Shown: positions 38,504 through 54,355 of the stretch, piece by piece
Numbering within the stretch: position 1 is the stretch's first letter
Layout: each line of letters opens with the position of its first letter
Source of the DNA: a virus
DNA length: 64,000 nucleotides
Direction: 5' to 3' (one strand)
IMG/VR virus record: IMGVR_UViG_3300036772_000367
Span: 32,001-96,000 of that record
The notes under the pieces: model-generated
Seen by the model: only the letters and a program-made list of their open reading frames with translations
Told to the model about the DNA's origin: nothing
Database searches by the model: none
Translations under genes and position numbers: made by a program

Positions 38504-39586
38504 ATGAACCAGGCTCTCGTTCATTCCGGGGTCAATGGTCAACTGTCGCGGCAGGCAGCGTATGCGCCTCCGCAGCAGCAGGTGAGTTACGCGCCACCGC
38601 AGCCCAACTACCCGGCCATGCCGAGCAATCTGTTGCGCAAGGCAGCCACGAAGTCCGACGACTACGTCGATCGGATTCTGCAACGCCGCGAGTCGGGCCA
38701 GAAGTTGGCGCACGCTGACAAGGTCCAGAAGATGGCTCTGATCCTCTCCGATGAGGTCAGTGGCATCAAGCGGCTCGGCGTGGGCATGATCGGCCCGATC
38801 CAGCTCAAGTTGCGCTATCAGGGTATTACGCGCAACGTGCTGATCGAGGACCCGGTCACCCCCGGTACTCCGGTCGAGTACGACGTGTGGGACGACCTGG
38901 GCCAGGCGTACATCATGTCCGGCCACGAGGGTGAAGTTCGGATCACCCCGTTCGAGGGCAAGCGCGTTCCGGTGCGGTTCTTCCGTATCGCCTCGCGGCC
39001 CGCGATCCGCAAGGAAGACCTGTTCTACCTCCGCATCAACGCGGTCGAGCAGGCCCAGGACGAAACCAAACAGGCGATCCTCAAGCAGGAGGACTCCCGC
39101 TTGATGGTGATCCTCCAAGCCGCCGTGAACGACTACGCCACCCGGCCCGACCACATCGTCACGCCGAACCACAACGTCATCGAGACCAGTGGTTACTACA
39201 CACCGGCGTCGCTGTACACCGCCGTCGCGCAGACCGACATGCACGAGTTGCAGTCCGCGCGGATCATGGTCAACCCCTACGACTACCGGGATTTCTTCCG
39301 GTGGGACATCAACACCACCGGTTGGGCCTTCAAGGACCGGGTTGTCGCGGGCGAGACCATCACCACCTTCGGTGAGTTCCAGTTCCAGCGCAGCATCATC
39401 GTCCCCCAGAAGACGATGTACCTGACGCCGGAGCCGAACTTCCTCGGTGTGTTCCCGGTGCTGTACTCGTTGGACGTCGAGGAAAACCACAATGTTGAAG
39501 CATTCTGGAAAGGATGGGTCTTCGACGAAATGGTTTCCATGGCAATCCTCAACCCCAGAGGGATTGCAACTGTGTCGAAGCCATAA
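38504..39586 (+). CDS. major capsid protein
   Basis: MIGPIQLKLRYQGITRNVL...AILKQEDSRL...KGWVFDEMVSMAILNPRG matches Bxz1/BRock-type MCP (recall); very high GC3. Confidence 0.9.
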   Translation: MNQALVHSGVNGQLSRQAAYAPPQQQVSYAPPQPNYPAMPSNLLRKAATKSDDYVDRILQRRESGQKLAHADKVQKMALILSDEVSGIKRLGVGMIGPIQLKLRYQGITRNVLIEDPVTPGTPVEYDVWDDLGQAYIMSGHEGEVRITPFEGKRVPVRFFRIASRPAIRKEDLFYLRINAVEQAQDETKQAILKQEDSRLMVILQAAVNDYATRPDHIVTPNHNVIETSGYYTPASLYTAVAQTDMHELQSARIMVNPYDYRDFFRWDINTTGWAFKDRVVAGETITTFGEFQFQRSIIVPQKTMYLTPEPNFLGVFPVLYSLDVEENHNVEAFWKGWVFDEMVSMAILNPRGIATVSKP

Positions 39587-39623
39587 CAATTTAGGATCGG
39601 ATTGGTAACGGTACTAGGTAGCA

Positions 39624-39660
39624 ACAGCCCCCTCACCAGCACATATGGTGAGGGGGCTGT
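39624..39660 (+). terminator. stem-loop terminator after MCP
   Basis: ACAGCCCCCTCACCA-gcacata-TGGTGAGGGGGCTGT. Confidence 0.8.
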
Positions 39661-39725
39661 CGTATGCTCGGAGAGAACCACACTGTGAGAGTGTTTTTGG
39701 AAGGGCTGGGTTATTGAACGCATAG

Positions 39726-39755
39726 TTGCGAGCAGAGATTGGGTGTACTTACACT
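39726..39755 (+). promoter_or_regulatory. sigma70-type promoter for a leaderless nuclease mRNA
   Basis: TTGCGA-N18-TACACT, 6 nt before ATG 39762; no RBS. Confidence 0.65.
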
Positions 39756-39761
39756 GCGGGT

Positions 39762-40928
39762 ATGGCTACCATCGCCGCAGAGACCCGAGCACGAGTCATG
39801 GAGCGTCACCAGGCCGGTGACGTGCCCTCACGTATCTGTCATGTCCTGCACCTCTCGCCCTCCACGGTGGCCCGCGTGCTGCGTGAAGTGGGTGTGCTGA
39901 CCGTGGAGCACAAGACCACTGTCGAGGCCCGGCAGCTTCGAGCTGAGCAGGCACCTCAGGTGCGGCGCCTCGCTGAGAAGGGGATCAGCCCAACGCAGAT
40001 CTGTAAAGAGCTGCATCTGGGCTATGACACACTCCGACAGATCGCTCGTGAGCATGAGATTGATCTACCGAAGGGGAGGGTCGGTGCACCTACCCAGAAG
40101 GCCCGACTCATGCCTCGCATACGAGAGCTTGTTGGTAAGGGTCTGTCACAATCTGAGATTTCTGAGGCTGTGGTTGTCCCACTTCCCACTATCAGTCGAT
40201 GGCTTCGGCAAGAAGAGATTCATCTTGGTCGCATAGACCGACACCCCGATCGCTCAGCTAACTTTGGTGCGACCTCGGAAGAACGGAGTGCGAGGGGAAG
40301 TCGAGGAGGACACGCCTCAGCGGACAAACTCGTTACCGTTGCTTGCAAATATTGTGGAGAAGAATTCACCCAAGGACGCAGTGGTTCTGGCAGAACTAGT
40401 CGTGATAGATATTGTTCACGTGAACATGCCTACGCGTACCGTCGGGAAAACTCTGGCAAGATGACCGTTTATACATGTGAATATTGTTCGACCGAATTCC
40501 AGTGGTGGACGAATCAACCACGAAAATTTTGTAGTCGAGAACATTTCTTGAAGGCGAATAAGCAAGTACCGAAGTATGGGTTTGAAGGACAAATCCTCGA
40601 TTCCGGCTACGAAGCCGCCTTCGTCGGAATGTGCTCAGTCTTGGGTATTCCCTTTGAGTTCTTTGATCGTGACGAGTGCGTGGAGTGGCAACCGGGGAGC
40701 TTGTATGGTCCTGATTTTCGTGTACTGATTGCAGGGAAGCCCGTCTTTGTCGATACGAAGGGACAAGACCGAGGATCTCACAAGTGGAAAGCTTTTCGCG
40801 AGCAGCGCGGTAGGTTGGCTATCCTGCATCGAGATGATTTGGCTATCCTTATGAAGATTTCGTCGTCCACGGACTGGCTGAATCATATCCGTGACATTGC
40901 GGTTGTCCAACAAGCAGAGCAAGAGTAA
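39762..40928 (+). CDS. free-standing endonuclease: three HTH repeats, two CxxC...(Y/F)CS fingers, PD-(D/E)xK domain
   Basis: SGYEAAF...YGPDF...FVDTKG; lower GC than flanking genes. Confidence 0.75.
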   Translation: MATIAAETRARVMERHQAGDVPSRICHVLHLSPSTVARVLREVGVLTVEHKTTVEARQLRAEQAPQVRRLAEKGISPTQICKELHLGYDTLRQIAREHEIDLPKGRVGAPTQKARLMPRIRELVGKGLSQSEISEAVVVPLPTISRWLRQEEIHLGRIDRHPDRSANFGATSEERSARGSRGGHASADKLVTVACKYCGEEFTQGRSGSGRTSRDRYCSREHAYAYRRENSGKMTVYTCEYCSTEFQWWTNQPRKFCSREHFLKANKQVPKYGFEGQILDSGYEAAFVGMCSVLGIPFEFFDRDECVEWQPGSLYGPDFRVLIAGKPVFVDTKGQDRGSHKWKAFREQRGRLAILHRDDLAILMKISSSTDWLNHIRDIAVVQQAEQE

Positions 40929-50361: not shown

Positions 50362-51891
50362 ATCCCGAACTTCACTCAATACGTGCCGCCCAATGTGTAT
50401 ATCAATACTGCCTCGACACCTGTGGTGGCGCCGATCGGTGTCAACCCCACGGTCATTTGTCTCATCGGTGCGGGTGTTGGCTATAACACTTTTCAGGACA
50501 TTGTCACCTTCAGTGGATCAACACCGGTCACCCTGACGAAGAGTGGCATCAATGCTTCATCCATTGTGGTGACGGGATACATTCCCGATCCCAATGCCAG
50601 CAACCAGGCGCTGCCACACACCTTCTTGCCGGACATCACCGGTGGTTCCCCACAGACCAGGGACTATTCGGTCAACCAGACCGGCTCCGGGGCCAGCAGC
50701 GTCACCACGCTGACCAAGGAGGGGTCGGGCACGATCAGCACGACTTATCCGCAAGCAACGGTGTCCTACCAGTACACCGACGCCAGCTACTACGGATTGC
50801 ACTTCTTTTCCGACTACACCAGTTTCACCAACGCCTACGGTCCCGCGTTGGATCCCACCACCGGAGCTCTCGTCAGTCCTCTGTCGCTGGCTGCCCAGGT
50901 CGCCATGCAGAACGGCGCGAACCAGCTCTACGCCATCGCGCTGGAGGGTGGCTCCAACACTCTTCAACAGCAGTTCGCCGATGCCTATGCGCTGTTGTCG
51001 TCTACGAATACCGATGCCAACATCATCGTGCCGCTGTGGAATGAGGTTACCGATCCCACGCAGCTCGCCGGGATGCTCGCCACGCTCAAGGCATTCGTGG
51101 AGGGAGATGCGACCAATCAGGGCATTCTGCGGATGGCATTCGTCGGGTTCGACGAGGCTTACGCACCGGCAATATCGGACCTGGCGACGCTGGCGGTGAA
51201 CGTGGCCTCCGAACGAGTCGTGATGGCGTGGCCGAACCAGTTGAACTTCTTCAACGGAGTGACCTCCCAGACACAGATCTTGGACGGCTTCTATCTGGCC
51301 ACGGCCTATGCGGGGCTGCTGTCCGCGCTACCGCCGCAGATGCCGTTGACCCAGAAGTATCCCCAGGGCTTCTCGGGTGTGCCTATAGCGATCAGCCAGA
51401 CTCTGACTACGACAGCGAAGAACCAGCTCTCCAGCTCCGGCGTCACCGTCTGCAATACCGATCGACGGGGTCGTCTGGTTGTTCGACATGGTCTCACCAC
51501 AGATTATGTCGGCGGAGTGCTCGCTCGCGAGATCAGTCTGGTGCGGGCCGAGGACGCCCTGTTCAACTTGGTCGACCAGAACTTGCTCACCGCTCAACTC
51601 ATTGGTCAGCCGATCATCACCAACACGGTGACCAGCACCAACACCACTCTGTTGCAGGTACGGTCCATTGTGACCGGCGCGCTGGATACGGCGACGACGT
51701 CCGCGCTGATCAATGGCTACAACAACGTCGTGGTGACGGAACAGCAACCACCGTCGGGCGACCCCACTATTATCCAGGTGCAGTTCGCCTACTTGCCGCC
51801 GTGGCCGTTGAACTACGTCCTGGTGTCATTCAGCGTCGACACGACGACCGGTCAGACGAACCTGACGGCCTCGGGAAACACCACGGGCTGA
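50362..51891 (+). CDS. tail sheath protein (possible ATC start at 50362; first canonical start GTG 50383)
   Basis: YVPPNVY N-motif; LVVRHGLTT...REISLVR...PLNYVLV C-motifs of contractile sheaths. Confidence 0.85.
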   Translation: MPNFTQYVPPNVYINTASTPVVAPIGVNPTVICLIGAGVGYNTFQDIVTFSGSTPVTLTKSGINASSIVVTGYIPDPNASNQALPHTFLPDITGGSPQTRDYSVNQTGSGASSVTTLTKEGSGTISTTYPQATVSYQYTDASYYGLHFFSDYTSFTNAYGPALDPTTGALVSPLSLAAQVAMQNGANQLYAIALEGGSNTLQQQFADAYALLSSTNTDANIIVPLWNEVTDPTQLAGMLATLKAFVEGDATNQGILRMAFVGFDEAYAPAISDLATLAVNVASERVVMAWPNQLNFFNGVTSQTQILDGFYLATAYAGLLSALPPQMPLTQKYPQGFSGVPIAISQTLTTTAKNQLSSSGVTVCNTDRRGRLVVRHGLTTDYVGGVLAREISLVRAEDALFNLVDQNLLTAQLIGQPIITNTVTSTNTTLLQVRSIVTGALDTATTSALINGYNNVVVTEQQPPSGDPTIIQVQFAYLPPWPLNYVLVSFSVDTTTGQTNLTASGNTTG

Positions 51892-51896
51892 TGATG

Positions 51897-52748
51897 TTAC
51901 TCGACGTGCTTCCACGACTTACGTCGCACGATAGCGCTGACGTTTGCGGCAGACATGCCGTACGCGTGAGCGATGTCGTCGGTCAGATCACCGGAGGCGT
52001 ATCGAGCACGGATAATGCGGATGTCGTTGTCAATGAGACGACTACCACCACCTTGTCGACGAACATGAGGGGCTTCGATCTCGTCCAGGTGCTGCCAGGT
52101 CTGACCTCTGATCGCATAGCCCAAAACAGCGATCTGGACATTATGGTGAGCTGCGATGGAAGCTTGGGTCTCGCCTGCTTTGGATCGAGTCCGAGCATCC
52201 AATACGATGGCATCAGTCAGGACGGCCGAGTCATTGGCTTCGCCACGCTGATTGGTCTTCCCTCTAGCTCGGCCGCGCTTGCTTTTGTCTCGCATGTTGT
52301 CAGCATGGGTTCCGTTCTCCAGATGACTGGGACGACAACAGGGTGGGTTGTCGCACTTGTGTCGGGCATGGTCTGGGATCGCTCCGCCCTGACTCAGCAT
52401 CAAAGCCATACGGTGGGCTCCGATGGTGGACTTACCATCAGGATTCTTCCGGTCATTGAAGATACGGAACAATCCGTACTCCTCGCCTTGAACGGGTCGT
52501 CGTCCGGCGGTCCACTCCCAACACGAGTCGTCGTCGTCAATGATGTTGACCTTCGACCAGAATCGAACTTCCAGTTCTGTCAGCTCTTGAGGACAGCTCT
52601 GGAACAGGAGGGCCTTGCGTTCGGCCACCTTAGCTCGAAGATCTTTGAGTGTGTTCCACACCTCGGTGATCTGACTTTCGAGCGCCCTGATCGGTTCCCA
52701 GCCTTCGTTCCAATCGGCGAGGGTCCGTACTTTGTCGTCGTATTCCAC
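51897..52748 (-). CDS. free-standing HNH homing endonuclease with two C-terminal HTH repeats
   Basis: RFWSKV...CWEW...YG...AHR...RHKCDNPPCCRPSHLENGTHADNMRD; GTG start at 52748. Confidence 0.9.
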   Translation of the reverse strand: MEYDDKVRTLADWNEGWEPIRALESQITEVWNTLKDLRAKVAERKALLFQSCPQELTELEVRFWSKVNIIDDDDSCWEWTAGRRPVQGEEYGLFRIFNDRKNPDGKSTIGAHRMALMLSQGGAIPDHARHKCDNPPCCRPSHLENGTHADNMRDKSKRGRARGKTNQRGEANDSAVLTDAIVLDARTRSKAGETQASIAAHHNVQIAVLGYAIRGQTWQHLDEIEAPHVRRQGGGSRLIDNDIRIIRARYASGDLTDDIAHAYGMSAANVSAIVRRKSWKHVE

Positions 52749-52754
52749 GGCGGC

Positions 52755-52763
52755 AGTATAGCA
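52755..52763 (-). promoter_or_regulatory. extended -10 promoter for leaderless HNH mRNA
   Basis: TGCTATACT on the minus strand, 6 nt before GTG. Confidence 0.7.
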
Positions 52764-52865
52764 GGTAGTGAAACCTCTTCGTTGGGTGCCTCGGAACCGC
52801 ACCAAAATGATCTTGAAGAGATCATCTTCGATGAGCGTTTTCCCTGCTGGGGTGGTGGTTAACTC

Positions 52866-53360
52866 ATGCCGAACACACAGGTTCGTGTCGTGGGATCTTA
52901 GTCCGGATTTAGCACTTTTAGCTACCAAGGACACCCTATTGCGTTCCTGGAGGGTGTAGAAGATTCCGGTCAGCGGGCCTTCTCCGACGCAGGTCAGGGC
53001 TACCAGTTCATCCACCCGTTGGGTTTCACGCACCCGATCGAGATCGCGACCTCGCGTGTGCTCGCGGGTGGCACGCTGAACCTGACCATCCGGGAATTGT
53101 GGAACACCTTCATCTGGGAGCAGCTGTTCGGTCTGGCGGGGACGCACAACATCGTGGACGTGTTCGCCGCCCTCGCTGCGAACCCCGCTTATGTCACCTG
53201 TCAGACGGTGATTCAGCCACCCGGTGGTGCTGCTCCTCGTGGAAAGAACTTCCACAATTGCGTGGTGGTTGACATTGCCGACAACGACACCATCACCGTG
53301 GGGGCGCTGGCGGTGACCAAGGGAATCGTCGTGGCATATACCCACTCATCGGCGCTCTGA
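52866..53360 (+). CDS. tail tube protein with an in-frame TAG at codon 12 (52899-52901)
   Basis: GGTGG RBS; MPNTQVRVVGS*SGFSTFSYQGHPIAFLEGVEDSGQ continues in frame into ORF 53019-53360; lies between sheath and chaperone. Confidence 0.85.
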
Positions 53361-53399: not shown

Positions 53400-53951
53400 A
53401 TGACCGCATTCAGTGCTGATGAAGCCCTGGTGGGTCCGACGTCCCGATCGTCGGACCCACCAGGCGTCTGGGATGCCCCAGAGCAGGAGACAACCACTCC
53501 TACGACTCCTGTGCGGGACGACCCGGTCAAGGACGATACCGATGATCTGACGCCGCGCGAGTTCAACCCTCGGGCCAGAGAACCGTTCATCGGATTGCTG
53601 TACCTGGGATCGCTGGACCGAGAGGTGACACTGTACGGCCACAAGTTCCTGTTGGTCACGCCCACTAATGCGGAGCGCATCCAGATGGGGTTGATCACCA
53701 AGGACTGGCGCGACACTGCGACCGAGGAAGTTGCCCTGGGTCAGGCGCTCGTGGCGGCCTTCCTGCACAAGGTCGACGGCCAACCGCTGCCAGAACCGAT
53801 CAGCCCAGATCCGAAGGACACCGCACTACGCGGCCGGTTCAATTGGGTGGGGGAAAACCTGCGGCGGCAGGTGATCACCGCGTTGTTCCAGGAGTGCATG
53901 ATCCTGGACACCCAAGTCGATATCGCGTTGGAGGCTATGGGAAAAGCGTAG
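53400..53951 (+). CDS. tail assembly chaperone
   Basis: Between tube and tape measure; ends at a slippery site. Confidence 0.8.
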   Translation: MTAFSADEALVGPTSRSSDPPGVWDAPEQETTTPTTPVRDDPVKDDTDDLTPREFNPRAREPFIGLLYLGSLDREVTLYGHKFLLVTPTNAERIQMGLITKDWRDTATEEVALGQALVAAFLHKVDGQPLPEPISPDPKDTALRGRFNWVGENLRRQVITALFQECMILDTQVDIALEAMGKA

Positions 53952-54355
53952 CGCCAGCCGGAGTGGACCCGTGGCTGAAGACAGAGTTGCGGTTGGCGGA
54001 ACGACAGGGACTGCTCACGGGACGTTACTTGTCGCCGATTCAGGTGCAGGGGATTCAAGTCCTCCGGCTGTTGGACGAGGTGGAGAAGCAGCAAACGAAG
54101 TTCGATCTGTTGCGGACGGCCTTGGTGGCGGCGGGAGCCCCTCCTCAGGACATGTGGCCCGAGTTCAAGGAGCTGTTCGGTGACGCCACGGTGGAGATGG
54201 ACGATCCGGCCGCTGACGATCCGAACGCGACGTATGACTACCGTGACGTGGAGTGGAAGGGCATCAGCGATGCTGCGCAGGAATACGAGGATCTGATGGT
54301 GAAGGTTGCTGCGCTCCACACGGGACGCATCAATGGTGAGTCCCTGACGAAGTAG
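53939..54355 (+). CDS. tail assembly chaperone -1 frameshift extension
   Basis: G GGA AAA at 53939-53945; the -1 frame is open to 54355. Confidence 0.8.
   Translation, partial: GKSVAPAGVDPWLKTELRLAERQGLLTGRYLSPIQVQGIQVLRLLDEVEKQQTKFDLLRTALVAAGAPPQDMWPEFKELFGDATVEMDDPAADDPNATYDYRDVEWKGISDAAQEYEDLMVKVAALHTGRINGESLTK

What the first reader, a model, noticed from the sequence alone, without database searches (positions are those of the whole stretch)
51897..53360. HNH endonuclease beside a Ser-amber-Ser 'stop-hop' in the tail-tube gene: candidate homing-endonuclease/ribosomal-bypass cassette
Seen: the tube gene reads ATG CCG AAC ACA CAG GTT CGT GTC GTG GGA TCT TAG TCC GGA TTT, then stays open and in frame to 53360. 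The TAG (52899-52901) sits between two Ser codons (UCU, UCC) that one tRNA-Ser(GGA) can read. The first ~35 codons are AT3-rich while the rest of the gene is GC3-rich, and an HNH gene starts divergently 118 nt upstream. Established: matched codons around a stop can be hopped. In T4, the bypassed gap in gene 60 (take-off codon then UAG) travels with the HNH endonuclease MobA and protects against its cleavage. Inference: related tube proteins read R-V-V-G-S-G-F (recall), so this looks like a 6-nt insertion that destroys the HNH site, and a UCU-to-UCC hop would restore the exact protein. A weak stem (GAUCU/GGAUU) would loop out exactly UAGUCC. Amber readthrough by a suppressor tRNA, or a dead gene, are alternatives.
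Basis: partly seen in the sequence, partly recalled or inferred. Interest (0 to 1): 0.95.

Follow-up and report, generated by a model that had tools for sequence, protein, structure and literature searches.

The report
Natural stop-hop in phage tube gene
An essential phage tail-tube gene is interrupted by six extra bases that include a stop codon; about 100 relatives suggest that ribosomes hop over it, and that it belongs to a family of tiny skipped inserts found only next to a selfish HNH nuclease gene.

Summary
The tube gene (ATG 52866, TGA 53360) reads UCU-UAG-UCC at codons 11-13. All of about 95 relatives read RVVG-S-G(F/Y), without these two codons. A second assembly (Logan, SRR11832861) carries the same insert. 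TAG is an ordinary stop in this phage, and none of its 40 tRNAs is a suppressor.

New here: 12 of 22 distinct related loci with an extra gene or gap between sheath and tube carry 2-16 nt inserts in the first 140 nt of tube. None of 55 loci without such a gap does. Every insert starts with the very rare codon TTA; the window alone has TAG. Each ends so that an identical, synonymous or near-cognate landing codon restores the ancestral protein exactly. Two relatives (L081 +15, L047 +16) are hit at the window's own site, with the same UCU take-off. Each HNH clade has its own insert site. HNH, 5' tube tract and insert appear to move together.

Best reading (about 0.6): peptidyl-tRNA-Ser hops from UCU over UAG to UCC. 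This would be a natural stop-hop, akin to T4 gene 60/MobA and to phage Hau3 UUA bypassing. Nothing has been shown at the protein level. Protection from HNH cleavage is inferred only.

The parts
50383..51891 (+). Tail sheath gene (502 aa as listed; the true start may lie upstream)
   Evidence: phrog_2839 tail sheath, E 1.3e-51. Relatives show the same order of sheath, tube, chaperones and tape measure.
51897..52748 (-). Free-standing HNH homing-endonuclease gene (283 aa, HNH_3 core plus C-terminal HTH-like repeats). It sits between sheath and tube, and 55 of 77 distinct related loci with a measurable sheath-tube gap have nothing there.
   Evidence: Pfam PF13392, E 1.4e-6, above the cut-off; phrog_59, E 7.5e-28. 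Homologues at 37-56% identity sit at the same place and in the same orientation in L011, L012, L033, L039, L047, L060-65, L074, L077, L081, L098, L100 and L104.
52749..52865 (.). 117-nt divergent intergenic region, with a GGTGG ribosome-binding site 8-12 nt before the tube ATG
   Evidence: Direct reading. No sigma-70 consensus promoter was found.
52866..52898 (+). Tube gene segment 1: codons 1-11 (MPNTQVRVVGS), ending in the proposed take-off codon UCU (52896-52898)
   Evidence: It aligns residue for residue with the N-termini of the relatives. R7, V8, V9, G10 and S11 are invariant in 35 relatives.
52899..52904 (+). The 6-nt insert: UAG (52899-52901) and the proposed landing codon UCC (52902-52904). 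It could equally be written TCTTAG at 52896-52901.
   Evidence: Absent from all relatives. Relatives L081 and L047 have +15 and +16 inserts at the same site with the same TCT take-off.
52905..53360 (+). Tube gene segment 2 (GFSTFSYQG ... THSSAL, then TGA)
   Evidence: phrog_2756, E 2.5e-29, covering residues 4-162. It is 81-88% identical to the IMG/VR relatives. It is the only copy in the 155-kb genome.
53400..54355 (+). Tail assembly chaperone pair with a -1 slippery site G_GGA_AAA at 53939. ORF1 ends in TAG at 53949-53951, which shows that TAG terminates nearby.
   Evidence: phrog_2792; heptamer and stop; relatives annotate a joined chaperone CDS.

Best explanation
The tail-tube gene carries a 6-nt coding gap that is most likely skipped during translation. 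With UCU (Ser11) in the P site and UAG in the A site, peptidyl-tRNA-Ser would unpair, re-pair with UCC six bases downstream and resume at GGA. The anticodon would be GGA, and the phage encodes such a tRNA. Nine bases would then specify one serine, and the product would be the ancestral MPNTQVRVVGSGF... protein. The gap is one member of a family of 2-16 nt gaps in the first 140 nt of tube genes in this uncultured actinophage-like myovirus group. These gaps are found only beside an endonuclease gene or its remnant between sheath and tube. By analogy with T4 MobA/gene 60, the gap probably disrupts the nuclease's target, so that the carrier genome is immune while the nuclease gene, the recoded 5' tube tract and the gap spread together by homing. 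Shown: the insert, its context, its absence from relatives, the family-wide rules and the link with the HNH gene. Inferred: hopping itself, its efficiency, and protection from cleavage.
For: (1) Every relative lacks the two codons, and the flanking residues are invariant.
(2) At least five apparently independent insert origins at four sites obey one rule. The sites are A after Ser11, B after Tyr13, C after Trp29 and D after Gln45/Phe46. Each has a take-off codon X, then UUA, then a landing codon identical, synonymous or near-cognate to X, placed so that the ancestral protein is restored. The cases are UCU..UCC +16 (L047), UCU..UCU +15 (L081), UAU-U-UAC +4 (L066/67), UGG-UUAAU-UGG and UGG-UUACC-UGG +8 (L060, L063), UGG..UGU +8 and UGG..UGC +7 (L061/62, L064), UUU-UU +2 (L066, L068-73), CAG-UUAGG-CAG +8 (L067) and CAG-UUACU-UAG +8 (L105).
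(3) TTA is otherwise almost unused: 8 in 16,333 codons of this phage and 1 in 7,634 in the hop-bearing loci.
(4) The same inserts recur in contigs from different samples (L069-73, L063/65). Both halves of the genes stay conserved, and L066 and L067 each carry two gaps. These genes therefore look functional.
(5) Inserts occur in 12 of 22 gapped or HNH loci and in 0 of 55 others. Site C belongs to one starred HNH clade. Site A +15 and +16 belong to another, which lies in the window HNH's larger clade. Sites B and D go with an HNH-AP2 type.
(6) Mosaicism: L060 is 98-100% identical to HNH-less L052 after nt 120 but only 65-70% before it, while its first 60 nt match HNH-bearing L061.
(7) L081 and L047 fold the take-off codon into an 8-bp hairpin with UUA in the loop.
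(8) This phage has no suppressor tRNA and uses TAG as a stop.
(9) The UUA-gap phages lack tRNA-Leu(UAA). The window phage has it and is the only one that uses UAG.
(10) Precedent: synthetic stop-hops and gene 60/MobA (PMC5009743), and UUA or UAA bypass of 7-10 nt in the phage Hau3 terminase with a junction peptide seen by MS (PMC10732093).
Against: There is no protein or ribosome data for any of these genes. As I recall from Weiss et al. 1987, synthetic stop-hops in E. coli run at about the per-cent level, yet a tube protein is needed in hundreds of copies. RF1 competes at UAG, which is not the case at a hungry UUA. The window's hairpin is only 4 bp and is not better than shuffles. The 6-nt form occurs in this one genome and was not seen in an independent sample. 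The nearest HNH relatives (L011, L012, L077) manage without any insert, so a gap is not required for carrying the HNH. The intact control phage G005 also lacks tRNA-Leu(UAA), so the tRNA correlation rests on n = 1. The HNH-insert association is not corrected for phylogeny: the sign test on starred branches is not significant.
Confidence: 0.6

Rival explanations
1. Amber readthrough. UAG is read by a near-cognate or host suppressor tRNA, giving a 164-aa tube protein with two extra residues (S-x) inside the VVGSGF motif.
For: The insert is in frame, so readthrough would give a full-length protein. Near-cognate reading of UAG is an established phenomenon (my knowledge).
Against: None of the phage's 40 tRNAs has a CUA anticodon. 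TAG ends the neighbouring chaperone gene and about a quarter of long high-GC3 ORFs. None of about 95 relatives tolerates extra residues at this invariant spot. The elements at the same site in L047 (+16, out of frame) and L081 (+15, UUA plus UAG) cannot be rescued by readthrough alone.
Confidence: 0.12
2. Dead allele. The assembled genome carries a recent null mutation in tube, for example an error-prone repair scar after HNH cleavage, and no functional protein is made from it.
For: This exact insert was seen in one genome only. Actinobacterial hosts have NHEJ, which can leave small insertions (my knowledge).
Against: It is the consensus in two assemblies of a complete 155-kb genome. There is no second tube copy. 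A random scar is unlikely to produce a stop flanked by codons read by one tRNA, at the very site and with the very take-off codon of the L081 and L047 gaps. Related gapped genes persist across samples under purifying selection.
Confidence: 0.15
3. Sequencing or assembly artefact. The six bases are not in the real DNA.
For: It is a metagenome-derived contig, and the reads could not be examined.
Against: An independent Logan assembly encodes the identical 482-aa antisense ORF across the insert, with identical gene spacing. A clean 6-nt non-repeat insertion is not a typical assembly error.
Confidence: 0.05
4. Termination and re-initiation. An 11-aa peptide is released at UAG, and the tube body is made from a downstream start.
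For: Coupled re-initiation after short ORFs occurs in bacteria (my knowledge).
Against: There is no in-frame ATG, GTG or TTG until TTG 53019, which is codon 52. The N-terminal residues R7-G12 are invariant or nearly so across the family, so a truncated protein is unlikely to work. This does not explain the matched codons.
Confidence: 0.03

Closest known systems
T4 gene 60 50-nt bypass plus the MobA homing endonuclease cassette (Bonocora et al. 2011, as summarised in PMC5009743; Manning & Atkins, bioRxiv 10.1101/2022.08.31.505936)
   Same: A free-standing HNH-family endonuclease gene lies next to an essential gene that carries a non-coding insert absent from insert-free homologues. Take-off and landing codons match, and a stop or rare codon follows the take-off codon. 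Nuclease, flanking tract and insert are inherited together. Some nuclease-bearing relatives have no gap.
   Different: The gap is 6 nt (2-16 nt in relatives), not 50. The gene is a tail tube, not a topoisomerase subunit. The phages are high-GC and actinophage-like. No nascent-peptide signal has been identified. No homology to the gene 60 element has been shown. Several gap sites occur in one gene, and two gaps in some genes.
Synthetic 'stop-hops' in E. coli (Weiss et al. 1987, ref. 54 of PMC5009743)
   Same: The architecture is the same: matched codons flank a stop codon, and 9 nt encode one amino acid.
   Different: Those were engineered reporters with low efficiency. This would be a natural case in an essential, highly expressed structural gene. 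I did not find a natural stop-hop in the papers I read.
UUA-mediated bypassing in the Streptomyces phage Hau3, StrepC.1 and S. catenulae prophage terminase genes (Smith et al. 2013; Antonov et al. 2023, PMC10732093)
   Same: Actinophage genes are interrupted by 7-10 nt gaps that begin with the rare UUA, with a landing codon downstream. Bypass was shown by MS when UAA replaced UUA. The window's relatives follow this pattern.
   Different: The window uses UAG, not UUA. The gene is tube, not terminase. The Hau3 case was read as a bldA-linked regulatory sensor, and that paper does not mention HNH at all. Here the gaps track homing-endonuclease insertions. Hau3-type gaps were found in 3 of 100 terminase genes, against at least 12 distinct tube loci here.
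Programmed +1 frameshifting at a stop codon (prfB CUU-UGA-C)
   Same: A slow A-site stop codon provokes re-pairing of the P-site tRNA. A G-rich stretch (GUGGGA) abuts the shift site.
   Different: The re-pairing codon does not overlap the take-off codon, and the reading frame is unchanged, so this is a hop and not a frameshift.

Membership tests
Homing-endonuclease-linked bypass cassette (T4 MobA/gene 60 type) | Endonuclease gene adjacent to the interrupted gene, and present or absent among relatives | tested here: met
   The HNH_3 gene lies 117 nt upstream and divergent. It is absent from 55 of 77 distinct related loci with a measurable sheath-tube gap.
Homing-endonuclease-linked bypass cassette (T4 MobA/gene 60 type) | Non-coding insert inside a conserved ORF, absent from homologues | tested here: met
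   The 6 nt are absent from about 95 relatives.
Homing-endonuclease-linked bypass cassette (T4 MobA/gene 60 type) | Matched take-off and landing codons, with a stop or hungry codon after take-off | tested here: met
   UCU-UAG-UCC. The phage encodes tRNA-Ser(GGA). All related gaps obey the same rule.
Homing-endonuclease-linked bypass cassette (T4 MobA/gene 60 type) | Insert co-inherited with the endonuclease (co-conversion) | tested here: inconclusive
   It is clear for site C relatives (L060 against L052 and L061) and from the link between HNH clade and insert site. For the window itself there is no close enough relative, and its nearest HNH kin have no insert.
Homing-endonuclease-linked bypass cassette (T4 MobA/gene 60 type) | Take-off stem-loop | tested here: inconclusive
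   The window has a 4-bp GGAU/GUCC hairpin, z = -0.49. L081 and L047 have 8-bp hairpins, z = -0.9 and -1.8.
Homing-endonuclease-linked bypass cassette (T4 MobA/gene 60 type) | Endonuclease cuts the insert-less allele and spares the insert-bearing one | not testable with these tools
   This needs an in vitro cleavage assay.
Stop-hop (9 nt encode one residue) | Product lacks the two residues expected from readthrough | not testable with these tools
   This needs MS of the junction peptide. The sequence architecture is met.
UUA-mediated bypass (Hau3 terminase type) | Gap begins with the rare UUA codon | tested here: not met
   The window has UAG. Eleven related gap classes do begin with UUA. The window phage alone carries tRNA-Leu(UAA).
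Stop-codon reassignment or suppressor-tRNA decoding of UAG | Suppressor tRNA present, or TAG not used as a terminator | tested here: not met
   There are 40 tRNAs and none has a CUA anticodon. TAG ends the chaperone ORF at 53949-51 and 43 of 177 long high-GC3 ORFs.
HNH_3 homing endonuclease | HNH_3 catalytic motif above the Pfam threshold | tested here: met
   PF13392, 28.3 bits against a cut-off of 24.8; several PHROG HNH families.

The most novel reading that the evidence does not exclude
Tail-tube genes of an uncultured lineage of about 150-165 kb actinophage-like myoviruses hold a recurrent, so far undescribed class of micro-bypass elements. The gaps are 2-16 nt long, lie at four sites, and come two per gene in some cases. 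They ride with two types of HNH homing endonuclease as immunity scars and are decoded by P-site tRNA hopping. The window's element would be the first natural stop-hop. The choice of stall codon (UAG or UUA) would follow from whether the phage brings its own tRNA-Leu(UAA).
Probability: 0.45. Interest if true: 0.9.

Novelty: new variant of a known kind. Interest (0 to 1): 0.85.

Why it matters
Efficient translational bypassing has rested almost entirely on T4 gene 60, with partial support from the Hau3 terminase. The recoding field has long expected shorter natural counterparts with matched take-off and landing codons (PMC5009743). This locus and its relatives offer a graded natural series (+2, +4, +6, +7, +8, +15, +16) in one essential, highly expressed gene. 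The series includes cognate and near-cognate landing sites, cases with and without hairpins, and UUA against UAG stall codons. That is ready material for testing what a hop minimally needs. It also extends, beyond T4-like phages, the idea that homing endonucleases drive the origin of recoding signals. There is a practical point too. Gene callers miss these tube genes: here a spurious 482-aa antisense ORF was called instead. Essential genes in phage metagenomes may therefore be mis-scored as absent or broken.

Tried and rejected
- Megablast of the region against cultured phages found no match.
- An exact-pattern scan of IMG/VR for the Ser-TAG-Ser context found no other contig.
- A genome-wide list of in-frame TAGs by GC3 was too noisy to use beyond the stop-codon tally.
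- The AlphaFold model of the tube protein was poor (pLDDT 54), so I ran no fold search. A profile search of PDB sequences found nothing. The name 'tube' therefore rests on synteny and PHROG 2756.
Local nucleotide alignment of the 117-nt spacer, on either strand, against the tube 5' end scored 13, against a shuffle mean of 14.6. This is not supported at the DNA level.
- No sigma-70 consensus promoter lies in the spacer.
- Simple -1 or +1 frameshifting was considered as the common mechanism for the relatives and rejected. No slippery overlap fits the +8, +15 or +16 cases, and it would add residues at invariant positions.
- Transposon excision footprints with 3-bp duplications were considered. 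They do not explain the universal TTA or the hairpins formed with upstream coding sequence.
- No cultured phage has a close HNH homologue next to a tube gene.

Full report
**What is in the window.**
The window is bases 32001-96000 of a 155,226-bp IMG/VR virus record. The record is 59% G+C and rated complete. Around the finding the order is:
- tail sheath, 50383-51891, + strand (phrog_2839, E 1.3e-51);
- an HNH gene on the minus strand, 51897-52748 (Pfam HNH_3 above its cut-off; phrog_59);
- a 117-nt spacer;
- a 165-codon frame from ATG 52866 to TGA 53360 (phrog_2756, E 2.5e-29);
- the tail assembly chaperones and the tape measure.

Codons 11-13 of that frame are TCT TAG TCC, with TAG at 52899-52901. 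The cultured relatives are Mycobacterium cluster C phages, Gordonia phage Stormageddon and Rhodococcus phage Finch, at 31-39% identity. They place a 155-156 aa 'virion structural protein' directly after the sheath, with no HNH between. Aligned to them, the window shows exactly two extra codons. I call the gene 'tube' from its position and PHROG family. A structure model was too poor to add anything.

**The insert is real and specific.**
Five IMG/VR relatives (81-88% identity) read MP(N/D)T(Q/K)VRVVGSGFS.... So do 68 metagenome relatives and 28 further IMG/VR loci, apart from the cases below. R7 to S11 are invariant in 35 diverse sequences.

A Logan assembly of SRR11832861 holds a 98.6-kb contig. 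It encodes the identical chaperone and the identical 482-aa antisense ORF that runs across the insert, with the same spacing. The six bases are therefore not one assembler's slip. I could not see reads.

The genome has one tube copy and one HNH of this type. It has 40 tRNAs and no suppressor, but it does have tRNA-Ser(GGA), which reads UCU and UCC. TAG is a working terminator: it ends the chaperone ORF 1 kb downstream, just after a canonical G_GGA_AAA slippery site. It also ends about a quarter of long high-GC3 ORFs.

**A family of micro-gaps.**
Relatives with something inserted between sheath and tube often have a broken tube frame. In each case, removing a short insert restores a full-length, conserved protein.
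- **Site A**, the window's site, after Ser11:
  - L081: GGC TCT [TTAGGAGCCTAG TCT] GGT, +15;
  - L047: GGT TCT [TTAGGACCCATAA TCC] GGT, +16.
- **Site B**, after Tyr13:
  - L066 and L067: TAT [T TAC] ACC, +4.
- **Site C**, after Trp29:
  - TGG [TTAAT TGG] in L060;
  - [TTACC TGG] in L063 and L065;
  - [TTAAT TGT] in L061 and L062;
  - [TTAA TGC] in L064.
- **Site D**:
  - CAG TTT [TT] ATC in L066 and L068-73;
  - CAG [TTAGG CAG] TTC in L067;
  - CAG [TTACT TAG] TTC in L105.

L066 and L067 each carry two gaps. Every gap starts with TTA right after the take-off codon. Every gap ends with a codon identical, synonymous or near-cognate to the take-off codon, so a hop would recreate the ancestral sequence exactly. 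TTA is otherwise almost absent: 8 of 16,333 codons in this phage and 1 of 7,634 in the gapped loci. Several gaps recur in contigs from different samples. Both gene halves stay conserved: L060 is 97% identical to intact L049 downstream of its gap. These are working genes, so the gaps must be decoded.

The window's TCT [TAG TCC] fits the same rule with UAG in place of UUA. It looks like an L081-type element that has lost TTAGGAGCC.

**Link to the endonuclease.**
Among 82 distinct loci, 55 have a sheath-tube gap of at most 160 nt and no HNH. None of these has an insert. Of 22 loci with a larger gap, 12 have an insert; 10 of those 12 have a recognisable HNH. Fisher p = 1.8e-8. This is not corrected for phylogeny. 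On the tube tree the insert state needs at least 7 changes, or at least 4 on well-supported branches. In independent pairs it always goes with the gap state, but there are too few pairs for a sign test.

Insert site tracks endonuclease type:
- site C belongs to one fully supported HNH clade;
- site A +15 and +16 belong to another, inside the well-supported group that also holds the window's HNH;
- sites B and D go with a different HNH-AP2 type, which is intact in L067 and L105 and a remnant in L066.

The tube genes are mosaics. L060 matches HNH-less L052 at 98-100% after nt 120 but at 65-70% before it, and its first 60 nt match HNH-bearing L061. This is the signature of homing with co-conversion. 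In line with it, the 5' 35 codons are more AT3-rich in HNH loci. The mean GC3 difference is -0.19, against -0.08 without an HNH. In the window the values are 0.49 and 0.79.

Eight HNH-bearing loci have no insert. They include the window's nearest HNH kin, L011, L012 and L077. A gap is therefore one route, not a requirement.

**Mechanism.**
Hopping of the P-site tRNA is the only mechanism that fits all cases. Readthrough cannot rescue the out-of-frame gaps, and simple frameshifts would add residues at invariant positions.

In L081 and L047 the gap pairs with the upstream coding sequence. The result is an 8-bp hairpin with the take-off codon at its top and UUA in the loop. L081's gap also contains AGGAG, 5 nt before the landing codon. 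The window keeps only a 4-bp GGAU-CUUA-GUCC hairpin, which is no better than shuffles.

The UUA-gap phages lack tRNA-Leu(UAA). This holds for G001 and G004, each with about 40 tRNAs, and for G003 and G002. The window phage carries it and is the only one that stalls on UAG. This would make sense, but it rests on one case, and the intact control G005 lacks the tRNA too.

**Literature.**
[quoted passage not shown] It also gives the view that the gene 60 gap protects against the neighbouring homing endonuclease, and it mentions possible UUA bypassing in phage Hau3 (PMC5009743).
- Antonov et al. 2023 found 7-10 nt UUA-started gaps in 3 of 100 actinophage terminase genes. They obtained a junction peptide by MS with UAA in place of UUA. 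The paper does not mention HNH (PMC10732093).
- Manning and Atkins report dozens of MobA/gene 60 cassettes with a stop or hungry codon at the take-off site.

The present case combines these themes in a new gene and a new phage group, with a much shorter gap.

**Verdict.**
Hopping, its efficiency and HNH immunity remain inferences. I put the hop at about 0.6, a dead allele at 0.15, readthrough at 0.12, an artefact at 0.05 and re-initiation at 0.03.

Noticed in passing
L066:2150-2320 and L067:2690-2850 (metagenome relatives): Two separate coding gaps lie in one tube gene: +4 and +2 in L066, +4 and +8 in L067. If both are hopped, a single essential protein needs two recoding events.
   Followed up: partly
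window 51897-53345, minus strand: A spurious 482-aa ORF fuses the HNH gene to the antisense of the tube gene. The Logan gene call for SRR11832861 lists this ORF and no tube gene, so automated annotation hides the interrupted tube.
   Followed up: yes
window 53939-53951: A canonical -1 slippery heptamer G_GGA_AAA lies two codons before the TAG stop of the tail assembly chaperone ORF1. The -1 frame ORF continues to 54355.
   Followed up: partly
genome 13136-31688 (upstream of the window); L139-L141: This phage has 40 tRNAs, including Leu(UAA), Leu(UAG), Ile(UAU) and Arg(UCU). Relatives G001, G004 and G005 have 38-40 tRNAs without Leu(UAA). Relative G002 (166 kb, rated complete) has no tRNA at all, and G003 has two.
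   Followed up: partly
window 52805-52830: An inverted repeat AATGATCT-TGAAG-AGATCATC sits in the HNH-tube spacer. It could be an operator or an RNA hairpin.
   Followed up: no
window 39482-40928 (earlier notes e1-5789079 and e1-5789095): Earlier readers report a second free-standing nuclease next to the capsid gene, with an AT3-rich recoded 3' end and a decayed copy of that segment. It would be worth checking for matched-codon gaps there too.
   Followed up: no
L063:2469-2876, L066:1888-2172, L068:2597-2971: These loci hold truncated or lost endonuclease genes (an HTH-only remnant, fused N- and C-terminal fragments, or nothing recognisable), yet the tube gaps persist. This suggests that the gaps outlive the nuclease.
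   Followed up: partly
L042/L043/L078/L085 and L054 (gaps of 600-900 nt): Unknown ORFs with no Pfam hit lie between sheath and tube, and the tube genes are intact. They may be other cargo or very diverged nucleases.
   Followed up: partly
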